Source of the DNA: the human T2T-CHM13v2.0 reference genome, Homo sapiens
Reading direction: 5' to 3' (one strand)
NCBI RefSeq assembly: GCF_009914755.1
Contig: NC_060934.1
Length of the DNA stretch: 64,000 nucleotides
In this document: positions 3,001-59,980 of the stretch, piece by piece
How the letters are laid out: each line of letters opens with the position of its first letter
Numbering within the stretch: position 1 is the first letter of the stretch
Position numbers and translations under genes: made by a program
The notes under the pieces: generated by a model
Seen by the model: only the letters and a program-made list of their open reading frames with translations
What the model was told of the DNA's origin: nothing
Database searches by the model: none

Positions 3001-3899
3001 TCTACAAAAAGAGAGTTTCAAACTCTTCTATCAAGTGATAGGTTCAACTCTGCGAGTTGAATGCACACATCACAAAGTAGTTTCTCAGAATCCTTCTTTG
3101 TAGTTTCTGTGTGAAGGTATTTCCTTTTCCACCATAGGAGTGAAAGTGCTCCAAATATCCCCATGCAGATTCTGTGAAAAGAGTGTTTCTAAACTGCTCA
3201 ATGAAAAGAAATTTTCAACTCTGTGAGATGGATGCAGACAAAACAAAGAAGCTTCTCAGAATGCTTCTGTGTAGTTTTTATGGGAAAATATTTCCTTTTC
3301 CACCATAGGCTGCAAAGTGCTCAAAATATCCACTTACAGATTTTACAAAAAGAGTGTTTCCAAGCTGCTCAATCAAAAGAGAGGTTCAACCCTGTGAGAT
3401 GAATGAACACATCACAAAGAAGTTTCTCTGAATGCTTCTGTGTAGTTCTTATGTGAAGATATTTCCTTTTCCACCATGGGCTGCAAAGGGCTCCAAATAT
3501 CCACTTGCAGGTTCTACAAAAAGAGAGTTTCAAAACTGCTCAACCCAAAGATACTTTCAACTCTGTGAGATGTATGCACACATCACAAAGAAGTTTCTCA
3601 GAATGCTTCTGTGTAGTTTTTAAGTGAAGATATTTCCTTTTCCACCATAGGCCTCAAAGCTCTCCAAATATCCACTTGCAGATTCCATGAAAAGAGTGAT
3701 TCAAAACTGCTCAATCAAAGGAAAGATTCAACTCTGTGAGATGAATGCACACATCACAAAGTAATTTCTCAGAATGCTTCTGTGTAGTTTTTATGTGAAG
3801 ATATTTCCTTTTCCACAGTAGGCCTCAAAGCGCTCCAAATATCCAGTTGCAGATTCTATAAAAAGAGTGTTTCCAAACTGCTCAATCAAAAGAGAGGGT
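1..3899. repeat. Monomeric alpha satellite, block 1
   Basis: ~171-bp periodicity of CACATCACAAAGAAGTTTCTCAGAATGCTTCTGTGTAG...AAATATCCACTTGCAGATTCTAC. Monomers are diverged and no CENP-B box is visible. Confidence 0.98.
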
Positions 3900-6204
3900 C
3901 CCATCAATACGTAATTTATTGAGAGTTTTTAGCATGAAGTTTTGTTGAATTTTGTCAAAGGCCTTTTCTCCATCTATGGATATAATCATGTAGTTTTTGT
4001 CTTTGGTTCAGTTTATATGCTGGAGTTATGTATGACAAATCCACAGCAAATATCATACTGAATGGGCAAGAACTGAAACATTCCCTTTGAAAACTGGCAC
4101 AACACAGGGATGCCCTCTCTCACCACTCCTATTCAACATAGTGTTGGAAGTTCTGGCCAGGGCAATTAGGCAGGAGGAGGAAATAAATGGTTTTCAATTA
4201 GGAAAAGAGGAAGTGAAATTGTCCCTGTTTACAGATGACATGATTGTGTATCCAGAAAACCCCATTGTCTCAGCCTCAAATCTCTCAGCCCCAAATCTCC
4301 TTAAGCTGATAATCAACTGCAGCAAAGTGTCAGGATAGAAAATCAATGTACAAAATCACAAACATTCTTATACACCAATTACAGAGGAACTGAGAGCCAA
4401 ATCATTAGTGAACTCCCACTCACAATTGCTTCAAACAGAATAAAATACCTAGGAATCCAACTTCAAAGGGACATGAAGGACGTCTTCAAGGAGAACTACA
4501 AACCACTGCTCAATGAAATAAAAGAGGAGGCAAACAAATAGAAGAACATTCCATGCTTATGGGTAGGAAGAATCAATATTGTGAAAATGGCCATACTGCC
4601 CAAGGTAATTTATAGATTCAATGCCATACCCATCAATCTACCTATTGCTTTCTTCACAGAATTAGAAAAAACTACTTTAAAGTTCATATGGCACCAAAAA
4701 AGAGCCTGCATCACCACATCAATCCTAAGCCAAAAGAACAAAGCTGGAGGCATCACACTACCTGACTTCAAACTATACTACAAGGCTACAGTAACCAAAA
4801 CAGCATGGTACTGGTACCAAAATAGAGATATAGATCAATGGAACAGAACAGAGCCCTCAGAAATAACGCCACATATCTAAAACTATCTGATCTTTGACAA
4901 ACCTGAGAAAAACAAGCAATGATGAAAGGATTCCCTATTTAATAAATGGTGCTGGGAAAACTGGCTAGCCATATGTAGAAAGCTGAAACTGGATCCCTTC
5001 GTTACACCTTATACAAAAATCAATTCAAGATGGATTAAATACTTAAACGTTAGACCTAAAACAATAAAAACCCTAGAAGAAAACCTAGGCATTACCATTC
5101 AGGACATAGGCATGGGCAAGGACTTCATGTCTAAAACACCAAAAGCAATGGCAACAAAAGACAAAATTGACAAATGGGATCTAATTAAACTAAAGAGCTT
5201 CTGCACAGCAAAAGAAACTACCATCAGAGTGAACAGGCAACCTACAAAATGGGAGAAAATTTTCTCAACCCACTCATCTGACAAAGGGCTAATATCCAGA
5301 ATATACAATGAACTCAATCAAATTTACAAGAAAAAAACAAACAACCCCAACCAAAAATGGGCAAAGGACATGGGCAGACACTTCTCCAAAGAAGACATTT
5401 ATGCAGCCAAAAAAGACACATGAAAAAATGCTCACCATCACGGGCTACCAGAGAAATGCAAATCAAAACCACAATGAGATACCATCTCTCACCAGTTAGA
5501 ATGGCAATCATTAAAAAGTCAGGAAACAACAGGTGCTGGAGAGGATGCGGAGAAATAGGAACACTTTTACACTGTTGGTAGGACTGTAAACTAGTTCAAC
5601 CACTGTGGAAGTCGGTGTGGCGATTCATTAGGGATATAGAACTAGAAATACCATTTGACCCAGCCATCCCATTACTGGGTATATATGCAAAGGACTATAA
5701 ATCATGCTGCTATAAAGACACATGCACCCGTATGTTTATTATGGCACTATGCACAATAGGAAATATTTGGAACCCACACAAATGTCCAAAAATGATACAC
5801 TGGATTAAGAAAATGTGGCACATAAACACCATGGAATACTATGCAGCCATAAAAAATGTAGAGTTCATGTCCTTTGTAGGAACATGGATGAAATTGGAAA
5901 TCATCATTCTCAGTAAAGTATCACAAGAACAAAAAACAAAATACCACATATTCTCACTCGTAGGTGGGAATTGAACAATAAGAACACATGGACACAGGAA
6001 GGAGAACATCACACTCTGGGGACTGCTGTGGTGTGGGGGGAGGGTGAGGGATATCTTTAGGAGATATACCTAATGCTAAATGACGAGTTAATGGGTGCAT
6101 CACACCAGCATAGCACATGTATACATATGTAGCTAACCTGCACATTGTGCACATGTACCCTAAATCTTAAAGTGTAATAATAATAATAAAAAGAAAAAGA
6201 AAAG
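3898..6204 (+). mobile_element. L1-a: 5'-truncated, 5'-inverted L1 (L1PA3/PA4-like)
   Basis: Inverted ORF2 piece 3898-4024, then sense ORF2 remnants from ~4030 to 5974 (…FSLVGGN), 3'UTR with GCTAAATGACGAGTTAATGGG, and an A-rich tail. Degenerate TSD AAAAGAGAGGGT (3888-3899) / AAAAGGTAGGGT (6205-6216). Confidence 0.95.
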
Positions 6205-58551: not shown

Positions 58552-59980
58552 CATCTATTGAGATAATCATGTGGTTTTTGTCTTTGGTTCTGTTTATATC
58601 CTGGATTATATTTATTGATTTACGTATATTGAACCACTCTTGTATCCCAGGCATGAAGCCCACTTGATCATAAAATTCAACAATTCTTCATGTTAAAAAC
58701 TCTCAATAAATTAGGTATTTATGTGACTTATCTGAAAATAATAACAGCTATCTATGACAAACCCAAAGCCTTATCATACTGAATGGGCAAAAACTGGAAG
58801 CATTCCCTTTGATAACTGTCACAAGACAGGGATGCCCTCTCTCACTACTCCTATTCAACATAGTGTTGGAAGTTCTGGCCAGGGCAATTAGGCAGGAGAA
58901 GGAAACAAAGTGTATTCAATTAGGAAAAGAGGAAGTCAAATTGTCCCTGTTTGCAGATGACATGATTGTATATCTAGAAAACCCCATTATATCAGCCAAA
59001 AATCTCCTTAAGCTGATAAGCAACTTCAGCAAAGTCTCAGGATACAAAATCAATGTACAAAAATCACAAGCATTCTTATACATCAACAACAGACAGAGAG
59101 CCAAATCATGAGTGAACTCCCATTCACAGTTGCTTCAAAGAGAATAAAATACCTAGGAATCCAATTTACAAGGAATGTGAAGGACCTCTTCAAGAAGAAC
59201 AACAAACCACTGCTCAATGAAATAAAAGAGGATACAAACAAATGGAAGAGCATTCCATGCTCATGGGTAGGAAGAATCAATAGAATCGTGAAAATGGCCA
59301 TACTGCCCAAGGTAATTTATAGATTCAATGCCATCCCCATCAAGCTACCAATGACTTTCTTCACAGAATTGGAAAAAAGTACTTTAAAGTTCATATGGAA
59401 CCAAAAGAGAGCCCACATCGCCAAGTCAATCTTAAGCCAAAAGAACAAAGCTTGAGGCATCAAGCTACCTGACTTTAAACTATACTACAAGGCTACAGTA
59501 ACCAAAGCAGCAGGGTACTGGTACCAAAACAGAGGTATAGATCAATGGAACAGAACAGAGCCCTCAAAAATAATGCCGCATATCTACAACTATCTGATCT
59601 TTGACAAACCTGAGAAAAACAGGCAATGGGGAAAGGATTCCCTAAATAATTAATGGTGCTGGGAAAACTGGTTAGCCATATGTAGAAAGGTGAAACTGGA
59701 TCCCTTCCTTACAACTTATACAAAAATTAATTCAAGATGGATTAAAGACTGAAACGTTAGACCAAAAAACATAAAAACCCAATAAGAAAACCTAGGCATT
59801 ACCATTCAGGACATAGGCATAGGCAAGGACTTCATGTCTAAAACACCAAAAGCAATGGCAACAAAAACCAACATTGACAAATGGGATCTAATTAAACTAA
59901 AGAGCTTCTGCACAGCAAAATAAACTACTATCAGAGTGAACAGGCAACCTACAAAATGGAAGAAAATTTTCACAACCTAT
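58552..59980 (+). mobile_element. L1-g: 5'-inverted L1 fragment lacking its 3' end
   Basis: Inverted piece 58552-58671 and sense ORF2 58672-59980, ending at TTCACAACCTA and fused to alpha satellite. No 3'UTR, poly-A or TSD. Confidence 0.92.

What the first reader, a model, noticed from the sequence alone, without database searches (positions are those of the whole stretch)
3898..59980. Independently inserted L1s share a patchwork of private, partly inactivating variants: a possible local gene-conversion network
Seen: the L1s occupy different sites, most with their own TSD, yet share non-consensus changes in non-nested combinations. a+b: double stop CAA-TGA-TGA-AAG (4918-4929 / 11093-11104; consensus TGG GGA), a +2 frameshift GCCAAAAAAGACAC (~5406 / ~10601), CATCTCTCACC and GTCGGTGTGG. 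a+d: TAC>TAA (4878 / 46717) and WHQK. d+f: TGG>TGA (47014 / 55135). a+f: CCTTCGTTAC (~4996 / ~54221). a+c: TTQG and THSS. b+c: GTTGGATTAG, AACCTTTAAG, TTATTGAATAGG, GGCTCAGGA. b+f+g: YINNR. f+g: RNVKD. d+g: TTTGATAACT. c+e+f: WDCQL. Established: L1 proteins act mainly in cis, so stops and frameshifts are rarely passed on from a source element. Inference: short-tract non-allelic conversion among L1s embedded in this satellite, or with paralogous pericentromeric copies, is homogenising them.
Basis: partly seen in the sequence, partly recalled or inferred. Interest (0 to 1): 0.85.

Follow-up and report, generated by a model that had tools for sequence, protein, structure and literature searches.

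The report
Few real conversions among neighbouring L1s
Old L1 retrotransposon copies lying in the satellite DNA beside the chromosome 10 centromere mostly share mutations that recur all over the genome, but a few short patches do seem to have been copied from one neighbouring copy into another.

Summary
The sequence facts hold. All 18 cited variants sit where stated. The L1s are separate insertions in monomeric 171-bp alpha satellite. "Private" is wrong for most variants. I counted 10 of the 18 singly across the whole genome by exact k-mer. Eight have 8 to 478 dispersed carriers, against 8,614 copies of a consensus 25-mer. Only the double stop (a, b and a third L1 95 kb upstream) and the +2 insertion (a, b) are confined to this neighbourhood. 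L1s b and e, 29 kb apart, are identical over 256 columns but for one base and share five rare sites. A 17-mer spanning two of these sites occurs nowhere else. Local pairs share 63 two-copy variants against 39.5 expected. Much of the excess lies in pairs a-b, b-c, a-c and b-e, and the rest in old-old pairs with subfamily states. Verdict: a small conversion cluster (a, b, e, perhaps c), not a network of all eight. This is a known kind of process. Rare L1 variants also cluster regionally genome-wide, which I could not explain.

The parts
3898..6203 (+). L1 a: 3' 2.2 kb plus a short inverted 5' piece (3898-4027). Poly-A ends near 6203. It has its own target duplication in the monomer motif CAAAAGAAAGG.
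   Evidence: It is 93.9% identical to the majority of 29 genomic L1s.
9818..12347 (-). L1 b: 2.5 kb, poly-T at 9818-9832, target duplication GAGTGTTTC. It is the hub of the sharing, with a, c and e.
21675..27094 (-). L1 c: 5.4 kb, target duplication GATATTT(T/C)C. Used as the coordinate reference ('c-pos').
40263..41324 (-). Inverted 5' piece of the old L1 whose 3' part is d. Together they are flanked by one duplication, AAAAGAGTGTTTCC.
41442..45758 (-). L1 e: 4.3 kb, the youngest copy (13 private events in 2,933 columns). It is nested in the old d element.
45755..48034 (+). L1 d: 3' 2.3 kb of the old twin-primed element.
54186..56161 (.). L1 f: inverted piece 54186-55014 and direct piece 55014-56161. 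Target duplication AAAAGAAAACTTCAACGC.
58565..59979 (+). L1 g: small inverted 5' piece, then direct. The 3' end is missing and there is no duplication.
11766..12021 (-). b side of the b-e tract. Largest extent 11766-12021. The five shared rare sites span 11839-12000.
   Evidence: alignment A1. The 27-mer at 11863-11889 is found only here and in e.
43378..43633 (-). e side of the b-e tract. Largest extent 43378-43633. The shared sites span 43451-43612. One e-only difference lies inside.
4911..4935 (+). Double-stop 25-mer in a.
11086..11110 (-). The same double-stop 25-mer in b.
5401..5426 (+). +2 (AG) insertion 26-mer in a.
10594..10619 (-). The same +2 insertion 26-mer in b. It lies 19-22 bases from a b-specific cluster that is a dispersed subfamily variant (51 copies).

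Best explanation
The pattern is a mixture.

(1) Most shared 'non-consensus' changes are ordinary. They are recurrent or hotspot mutations and minor or older subfamily states, carried by tens to hundreds of L1s all over the genome. Eleven old L1s in 164 kb, each with about 50-200 differences from the majority, are expected to share dozens of them in non-nested combinations.

(2) On top of that, a few short patches were copied at the DNA level between separate L1 insertions. This is non-allelic (ectopic) gene conversion, presumably repair of a break in one L1 using a nearby L1 as template.
- One tract of 162-256 bp joins b and e, which are 29 kb apart in the same orientation.
- Two patches of under about 40-120 bp are shared by a and b. 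These are tail-to-tail inverted copies 3.6 kb apart.
- One of those patches is also in an L1 95 kb upstream.
- b-c and a-c may have exchanged too.

Shown: the separate insertions, the genome-wide counts, the tract and its bounds, and the different ages of b and e.

Inferred: the mechanism, the direction (b to e fits slightly better), and the timing. One difference in 256 bp since the event suggests it is much younger than either insertion.
For: Separate insertions:
- Different truncation points, orientations, inversion junctions and target duplications.
- a and b are only 91.0% alike, b and e 95.4%.

Recurrence:
- 8 of the 10 reader variants counted singly have 8-478 dispersed carriers.
- A consensus 25-mer has 8,614 copies, which puts these variants at roughly 0.1-5.5%.
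- Local-versus-unlinked control pairs share 81 two-copy events in 319 pairs.
- Old-old sharing is subfamily state. The g+u4 4-bp deletion has 842 copies and the u3+u4 two-site haplotype has 61.

Conversion, b-e:
- b and e are identical over 256 aligned columns except one base, and share five sites rare among 29 genomic L1s.
- The 27-mer and the 17-mer spanning two of those sites each match b and e only, 2 of 2 in the whole genome.
- No other rare shared site lies in the rest of their 2.5-kb overlap.
- Private loads differ: 34 of 2,611 for b against 13 of 2,933 for e, P=6e-4. They are therefore not siblings from one source.

Conversion, a-b:
- The double stop is in a, b and the upstream L1. The only other 25-mer match is an unrelated 78%-identical L1. 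The 17-mer has 6 matches.
- The +2 insertion gives 2 of 2 for the 26-mer and 3 for the 17-mer.

Clustering of shared events:
- Pairs with 3 or more two-copy events within 300 bp number 4 of 55 local pairs. They number 0 of 319 local-control and 0 of 406 control-control pairs.
- Total local excess is 63 against 39.5, P=3e-4. a-b, b-c, a-c and b-e together give 14 observed against 2.55 expected.
Against: - A strict longest-identical-run scan, in the style of GENECONV, singles out no pair within the window. Its only local-local hit is u2-u4 upstream. Local pairs with P<0.05 are 11 of 53, against 50 of 316 and 66 of 406 in controls.
- The a-b shared changes are isolated among many differences (152 a-only and 73 b-only sites). 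The implied patches are very short, and one event with patchy repair has to be assumed.
- By my rough estimate, one coincidence at a frequency near 1e-4 among about 4,500 comparisons would not be rare by itself. The a-b case rests on two compound changes plus the third carrier.
- b-c shared sites are scattered with no drop in divergence. An unlinked control pair, L021-L025, is as extreme at 3 vs 0.07. So kinship within a small subfamily can mimic the signal.
- The 29 background L1s are a biased sample. They are the best hits to 600 bases of a, and are young and clean.
- Exact k-mer counts are lower bounds on carrier numbers.
- No reads, other human assemblies or ape orthologues could be examined. 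An assembly error is not excluded and no polarity is shown.
Confidence: 0.6

Rival explanations
1. Frequent short-tract conversion links most or all of the L1s in this satellite and produces most of the shared variants. The satellite setting drives it.
For: - Local pairs share more than controls, 63 vs 39.5.
- Multi-event clusters occur only in local pairs.
- Genome-wide, L1s carrying the same rare variant are far more often neighbours than L1s carrying different ones: 15 of 4,439 pairs against 2 of 17,089 within 100 kb. With more lists the ratio is 26-fold at 3-20 kb, falling to 3-fold at 1-3 Mb.
- All 3 outside pairs inspected, and the chr4 cluster of five, are separate insertions.
Against: - The counted variants cited for pairs involving d and f have 24-478 dispersed carriers.
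- Pairs with d, f or g show no excess.
- d and e, which abut each other, share one two-copy event.
- Old-old excess is subfamily state.
- The same sharing is seen on chromosome arms, so the satellite is not needed.
- Clustering differs strongly between variants: 0 close pairs among 69 carriers in one list, 20 among 100 in another. A uniform conversion process does not predict that.
Confidence: 0.15
2. No DNA-level exchange at all. Every shared variant is recurrent mutation or inheritance from small source lineages, and the local-only cases are coincidence.
For: - Most variants are recurrent.
- Unlinked L1s can share three two-copy variants, as L021-L025 do.
- The run scan is flat.
- Each single site of the b-e tract can recur. 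The T>G site alone has 37 copies.
Against: - Five rare sites within 162 bp are shared only by two L1s 29 kb apart, with none in the other 2.3 kb of overlap.
- The two-site word is absent from the rest of 3.1 Gb.
- A double substitution sits in three L1s within 101 kb and otherwise only in unrelated or single scattered copies.
- b and e differ in age.
Confidence: 0.12
3. Shared descent from a local or defective source lineage. Copies with the same changes were made from the same source RNA, in trans where the frame is broken, and landed near each other. More generally, progeny of one L1 lineage insert regionally.
For: - Regional clusters of one variant exist on many chromosomes. For the WDCQL change, eight carriers lie within chr4:96.87-97.42 Mb.
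- Clustering is variant-specific, as lineage markers would be.
- Three dispersed L1s carry both the TAA stop and the WDCQL change.
Against: - Siblings should share source variants along their whole length. b-e share them only in one tract.
- a and b differ at 225 sites and at states that separate older from younger copies.
- The five chr4 neighbours carry the shared change on different backgrounds.
- From my own knowledge, not from a call: no local preference of L1 insertion is known.
Confidence: 0.08
4. Assembly or polishing artefact that copied bases between L1s.
For: None found. It could not be tested because no reads or other assemblies are available here.
Against: The copies differ by 4.6-9% outside the shared patches, which long accurate reads separate easily. 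The b-e tract has clean bounds and one private difference.
Confidence: 0.03

Closest known systems
Non-allelic gene conversion between neighbouring Alu elements (Aleshin and Zhi 2010). I saw it only as described in passages of PMC8230782 and PMC6598467.
   Same: Separate retrotransposon insertions exchange non-diagnostic mutations. The effect is strongest between close copies. It produces hybrid elements and conflicts with a single tree.
   Different: Those passages give a range of about 10 kb for 300-bp Alus. Here the elements are L1s of 1.4-5.4 kb at 3.6, 29 and about 95-101 kb, inside alpha satellite. Only a handful of events are supported.
Gene conversion involving L1 elements (Tremblay et al. 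2000 in mouse cells; Vincent et al. 2003 at human-specific L1 loci). Recalled, not seen in any call.
   Same: A resident L1 is partly overwritten using another L1 as template.
   Different: As I recall them, those cases are break-induced events or replacement of an old L1 by a young active-family sequence. Here both partners are old, dead, truncated copies, and inactivating changes are what moved. My four literature searches listed Alu, LTR and gene-family studies. They listed no study of L1-to-L1 exchange in alpha satellite.
Non-allelic conversion among human LTRs (PMC4921805). Search listing and start of abstract only.
   Same: Dispersed repeats of one family act as conversion substrates within a genome.
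   Different: A different element class. No details were read.
L1 subfamily succession, and L1 typing used to date dead alpha-satellite layers (Shepelev et al. 2009, PMC2729386, passages).
   Same: Monomeric alpha satellite flanking a centromere accumulates L1s of successive ages. Many of the differences shared here are such age or subfamily states.
   Different: Dating assumes each L1 keeps the sequence it arrived with. The b-e tract shows that this is not always so. I could not assign subfamily names, because no reference consensus was available to the tools.

Membership tests
Non-allelic (ectopic) gene conversion between dispersed repeats | The partners are separate loci, not copies of one duplicated block. 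| tested here: met
   Different truncation points, orientations, inversion junctions and target duplications for a, b, c and f. Element e is nested in d.
Non-allelic (ectopic) gene conversion between dispersed repeats | A contiguous tract of shared derived sites bounded by discordant sites (pair b-e). | tested here: met
   Five rare shared sites in 162 bp. Identity over 256 columns with one difference. Discordant sites on both sides.
Non-allelic (ectopic) gene conversion between dispersed repeats | A contiguous tract of shared derived sites bounded by discordant sites (pairs a-b, b-c, a-c). | tested here: not met
   Shared sites are isolated among many private differences and divergence does not drop. 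For a-c, five of the shared sites fall within 373 bp of the 3' end, which is suggestive only.
Non-allelic (ectopic) gene conversion between dispersed repeats | The shared variants are absent from other members of the family. | tested here: met
   Met for three sets: b-e word, 2 of 2; +2 insertion, 2 of 2 and 2 of 3; double stop, 3 of 4 and 3 of 6. Not met for 8 of the 10 reader variants counted singly.
Non-allelic (ectopic) gene conversion between dispersed repeats | The partners differ in age or background outside the tract, so they are not siblings. | tested here: met
   Private events are 34 of 2,611 for b and 13 of 2,933 for e, P=6e-4. b also carries a 51-copy subfamily cluster that e lacks.
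Non-allelic (ectopic) gene conversion between dispersed repeats | One-way transfer after both insertions, shown by orthologues or population data. | not testable with these tools
   No ape or other human assemblies and no reads are available.
Ordinary L1 subfamily or recurrent (hotspot) variant | Many carriers dispersed over the genome. | tested here: met
   8, 24, 34, 38, 64, 209, 218 and 478 copies for eight reader variants. 842 and 61 copies for two old-old shared states.
Segmental duplication of an L1-bearing block | Homology continues into the flanks, with the same junctions. | tested here: not met
   Junctions differ in the window. There is no flank homology in the 3 outside pairs or the 5 chr4 neighbours. 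One outside cluster, chr14 with four copies about 24.7 kb apart, does look like tandem duplication.
APOBEC3-type editing hotspot (for TGG>TGA) | G-to-A change at the first G of a GG pair on the L1 sense strand, recurring in many independent copies. | tested here: inconclusive
   The context fits and there are 478 carriers. I did not test for a strand-biased G-to-A excess in those copies. The link to APOBEC3 is from my own knowledge.

The most novel reading that the evidence does not exclude
Sequence exchange between neighbouring L1s may be pervasive and distance-dependent across the human genome, amounting to regional concerted evolution of dead L1s. This window would then be one instance.

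Evidence that does not exclude it:
- L1s carrying the same rare variant are 18- to 26-fold more often within 100 kb of each other than L1s carrying different rare variants. The ratio decays to about 3-fold at 1-3 Mb. One list in that test is truncated and some clusters are duplications.
- With complete lists only, the figures are 15 of 4,439 against 2 of 17,089.
- The neighbours inspected are separate insertions on different backgrounds.
Probability: 0.3. Interest if true: 0.65.

Novelty: new member of a known kind. Interest (0 to 1): 0.42.

Why it matters
It shows concretely that even dead, truncated L1s in crossover-poor pericentromeric satellite can be partly overwritten by neighbours. That bears on three uses of L1 sequence.

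- **Dating.** L1 subfamily and divergence are used to date alpha-satellite layers.
- **Source tracing.** Shared mutations are read as shared source elements.
- **Paralogue variants.** Variant calling and interpretation in repeats depend on each copy keeping its own sequence.

It is also a caution in the other direction. With about 10^4 comparable copies in the genome, most "private" shared mutations between two L1s are simply recurrent, premature stops included. Genome-wide counts are needed before invoking exchange.

The regional clustering of rare L1 variants, if it holds up, would extend to L1 what has been reported for Alu.

Tried and rejected
- **Duplication of one insertion (a/b, or a/d/g with similar 5' ends).** Rejected on junctions and target duplications.
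- **The chr10:63.0 Mb match to the double-stop word as a source element.** Rejected. It is an unrelated old L1 at 77-79% identity.
- **Longest-identical-run scan of all pairs.** It found no enrichment among local pairs. Its top hits reflect how the background was chosen.
- **A 201-bp mutation-free run in a (c-pos 4295-4495, P=2e-5) as a sign that a was overwritten by a younger L1.** Left open. The run depends on one dimorphic site where the background was selected to resemble a.
- **A d+u4 "compound" shared event.** This is an alignment artefact.
- **Uniqueness of two-site haplotypes for b-c and a-c.** This adds little beyond the count of shared sites, because two variants at about 1% each are jointly rare anyway.
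- **Naming L1 subfamilies.** Not possible, as no reference consensus is available to the tools. I used private load and states shared with the older copies instead.
- **Fetching 200 kb around the window.** Only the upstream 100 kb was read, so the downstream side is unseen.
- Seven reader variants and most local two-copy variants remain uncounted.

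
Full report
**What is in the window.** The window is monomeric alpha satellite: 171-bp period, 79-85% matches between monomers, one orientation throughout. 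It is interrupted by A-rich or T-rich blocks.

Using the longest block (c) as a probe, the L1 pieces are as follows:
- a: 3898-6203, plus strand, with a 130-bp inverted 5' piece
- b: 9818-12347, minus strand
- c: 21675-27094, minus strand, 5.4 kb
- a fragment at 40263-41324, minus strand
- e: 41442-45758, minus strand
- d: 45755-48034, plus strand
- f: 54186-56161, inverted 5' piece then direct
- g: 58565-59979
- h: from 63578, cut by the window end

Elements a, b, c and f each have their own target-site duplication at a different place in the monomer. The 40263-41324 fragment and d are bracketed by a single duplication, so they are one old twin-primed L1 with e nested inside it. Element g lacks its 3' end and any duplication.

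The 100 kb upstream holds four more L1s, u1 to u4, also in alpha satellite. Pairwise identities are 90-96%.

**The cited variants exist.** Ten nucleotide motifs are found exactly in the stated pairs and in 0-3 of 29 L1s fetched from other chromosomes. The six peptide motifs are in the stated elements. The two stop changes are seen.

**Are they private?** The whole genome can be searched, so I counted exact words of 17-31 bases, or gapped pairs of words, carrying each variant. A consensus 25-mer from this part of L1 occurs 8,614 times, which gives the scale.

| Variant | Genome-wide count |
|---|---|
| Double stop | 4 for the 25-mer: a, b, u1 at chr10:39,403,819, and an L1 at chr10:63.0 Mb that is only 77-79% identical and so unrelated |
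| Double stop, 17-mer | 6 |
| +2 insertion | 2 for the 26-mer (a and b); 3 for the 17-mer |
| GTTGGATTAG | 8 |
| CCTTCGTTAC | 24 |
| TAC>TAA | 34 |
| CATCTCTCACC | 38 |
| TTQG | 64 |
| TTATTGAATAGG | 209 |
| WDCQL | 218 |
| TGG>TGA | 478 |

The last eight are dispersed over many chromosomes. At frequencies of about 0.1-5.5%, and with about 50-200 differences from the majority per element, eleven neighbours are expected to share many of them in non-nested combinations.

The TGG>TGA stop sits in a GG-to-AG context. From my own knowledge that suggests cDNA editing at insertion. This would explain how a stop recurs without being inherited. I did not test it.

**A control for chance sharing.** I aligned the 11 local L1s that overlap the 3' 2.8 kb with 29 L1s from other chromosomes. 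Those 29 are the best hits to 600 bases of a, so the sample is young, clean and biased. I counted variants carried by exactly two sequences, merging adjacent columns into events.

- Local-local pairs: 63 events in 54 pairs.
- Local-control pairs: 81 events in 319 pairs.
- Control-control pairs: 43 events in 406 pairs.

Scaled by each pair's private load and overlap, the control rate predicts 39.5 local-local events (P=3e-4).

Old-old pairs give 28 against 19.1. Their extra sharing is subfamily state. The g+u4 4-bp deletion has 842 copies and the u3+u4 two-site haplotype has 61. One d+u4 event is an alignment artefact.

The other pairs give 35 against 20.4. Nearly all of that excess sits in four pairs:
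- b-e: 3 vs 0.13
- b-c: 4 vs 0.54
- a-c: 4 vs 1.10
- a-b: 3 vs 0.78

One unlinked control pair is as extreme (L021-L025, 3 vs 0.07), so kinship within small subfamilies can imitate this. Three or more such events within 300 bp occur in 4 of 55 local pairs, 0 of 319 local-control pairs and 0 of 406 control-control pairs. A strict longest-identical-run scan shows no excess among local pairs.

**The b-e tract.** Between c-pos 3250 and 3411, b and e share five states that are absent or nearly absent from the 29 background copies.

- In a direct alignment the two are identical over 256 columns except one e-specific base. Discordant sites lie on both sides.
- In b the tract is window 11766-12021 at most and 11839-12000 at least. 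In e it is 43378-43633 at most and 43451-43612 at least.
- The 27-mer and the 17-mer that span two of the five sites each occur twice in 3.1 Gb, in b and e. One of the single sites alone occurs 37 times.
- Outside the tract, b and e share no rare site in the remaining 2.3 kb.
- Their private loads differ about three-fold, 34 of 2,611 against 13 of 2,933, P=6e-4. b also carries a 51-copy subfamily cluster that e lacks.

Two siblings from one rare source would share variants along their whole length and be of one age. Neither holds. A 162-256-bp patch copied between two L1s 29 kb apart fits all of this. The density of variants in the tract matches b's load rather than e's, so b to e is slightly favoured. 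That step is inference.

**The a-b-u1 sharing.** The double substitution and the 2-bp insertion are each compound changes with at most three other carriers anywhere. They lie 490 bases apart in L1 coordinates.

- a and b are the closest pair, 3.6 kb apart, tail to tail.
- They are otherwise very different: 152 a-only and 73 b-only sites against 18 shared, most of which are common states.
- The insertion lies 19-22 bases from b's 51-copy subfamily cluster, which a lacks. Discordant sites lie within about 40 bases on both sides of each change.
- So any transferred patches are very short, or one heteroduplex was repaired in patches. Short tracts are known from break repair in mammalian cells. That is recalled, not checked.

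The other a-b shared sites that I counted are recurrent, with 38 and 71 copies.

A single coincidence at this rarity would not be compelling among roughly 4,500 element-by-variant comparisons. Two in the same pair plus a third local carrier is hard to get by chance. My rough estimate is about 0.02 or less after allowing for 55 pairs, which is an inference from the counts above.

**b-c and a-c.** The two-site haplotypes tested are unique to the pair. That adds little, because two variants at about 1% each are jointly rare anyway. The b-c shared sites are scattered over 1 kb with no fall in divergence. Five of the a-c sites fall within 373 bp near the 3' end. I rate these as possible exchange or small-subfamily kinship, unresolved.

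**Outside the window.** While reading the hit lists I noticed that carriers of the same rare variant are often neighbours elsewhere too.

- Excluding this locus and using complete lists, same-variant pairs within 100 kb are 15 of 4,439. Pairs carrying different variants are 2 of 17,089.
- With five more lists the ratio is 26-fold at 3-20 kb, 18-fold at 20-100 kb, and declines to 3-fold at 1-3 Mb.
- One of those lists is truncated to chromosomes 1-8, which inflates the ratio by up to about two-fold. At least one cluster, on chr14, looks like tandem duplication.
- The three outside pairs I fetched are separate insertions with no flank homology. One pair shares 13 further rare sites.
- Five neighbours within chr4:96.87-97.04 Mb all carry the WDCQL change. 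They are separate insertions and sit on different older and younger backgrounds.
- Clustering is very uneven between variants, from 0 close pairs among 69 carriers to 20 among 100. Neither uniform conversion nor simple lineage inheritance explains that.

This is unexplained. It does show that nothing here needs the satellite.

**Comparison with what is known.**
- Exchange of non-diagnostic mutations between neighbouring Alus, strongest within about 10 kb, is described in passages of PMC8230782 and PMC6598467.
- Conversion among LTRs appears in a listing only.
- L1 typing is used to date dead alpha-satellite layers in PMC2729386 (passages).
- L1-to-L1 conversion is reported in papers I only recall (Tremblay 2000, Vincent 2003).
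- Four searches listed no study of L1 exchange within alpha satellite.

So this is a new example of a known process.

**Limits.**
- No reads, other human assemblies or ape genomes were available.
- The background sample is biased.
- K-mer counts are lower bounds.
- Subfamily names were not assigned.
- Only upstream flanking sequence was read.
- Seven reader variants and most local two-copy variants were not counted genome-wide.

Noticed in passing
genome-wide hit lists: L1 copies carrying the same rare variant are strongly enriched among neighbours outside this locus. Within 100 kb, 15 of 4,439 same-variant pairs are neighbours against 2 of 17,089 cross-variant pairs. The ratio falls from 26-fold to 3-fold between 3 kb and 3 Mb. 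The effect is very uneven between variants.
   Followed up: partly
L051-L055 (chr4:96.87-97.04 Mb): Five neighbouring L1s all carry the WDCQL A>C change, which has 218 copies genome-wide. They are separate insertions with no flank homology and sit on different older and younger backgrounds. They also show their own patchwork of pairwise rare variants.
   Followed up: partly
L049/L050 (chr1:80.23 and 80.25 Mb): Two inverted, separately inserted L1s 12 kb apart are 96.4% alike and share 13 rare sites over 2.5 kb. That is far more than chance.
   Followed up: partly
window 40263-48034: A composite. An old twin-primed L1 (inverted piece 40263-41324 plus d) is flanked by one duplication, AAAAGAGTGTTTCC. 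The young L1 e is nested in it, with a (TA)n/(CA)n filler at 41325-41441.
   Followed up: partly
window 58565-59979: L1 g stops at c-pos about 4500 without a poly-A tail. The satellite resumes in another monomer phase. This looks like a later deletion or rearrangement.
   Followed up: no
window 30131-32003: A GC-rich insert with a 37-bp tandem array (30794-31480) and an A-rich end. It looks like an SVA-type element.
   Followed up: no
window about 50518-50818: A 300-bp GC-rich interruption of the satellite between two TRF arrays. It is probably an Alu.
   Followed up: no
window 5063-5263 (a, c-pos 4295-4495): A 201-bp run in a has no difference from the background majority, though a differs at 7.6% overall (P=2e-5). 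a may have been overwritten here by a younger L1. The run depends on one dimorphic site favoured by how the background was chosen.
   Followed up: partly
L038:2015-3245 and L039:2262-7499 (u2, u4): u2 and u4 are identical over 172 bp (c-pos 2118-2289) although 9.6% apart overall. They share several states not seen in c, e or five other L1s. This is either subfamily kinship or another tract. No background coverage was available there.
   Followed up: partly
chr3:84.28 Mb, chr4:61.88 Mb, chr7:115.08 Mb (hit lists): Three dispersed L1s carry both the TAA stop and the WDCQL change, 704 bases apart. This hints at a lineage that spread with a broken frame, or at linked exchange.
   Followed up: no
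chr14:100,609,524-100,683,189: Four carriers of one variant lie on the same strand at about 24.7-kb spacing. This is probably a tandem duplication, and it contributes to the neighbour statistic.
   Followed up: no
chr10:39.07-44.80 Mb: 5 of the 64 carriers of the TTQG change lie around the chr10 centromere, a and c included.
   Followed up: no
window 47014 and 55135 (d, f): The TGG>TGA stop is present in 478 L1s genome-wide and sits in a GG-to-AG context. That is the pattern expected of cytidine-deaminase editing of L1 cDNA. This link is from my own knowledge and was not tested.
   Followed up: no
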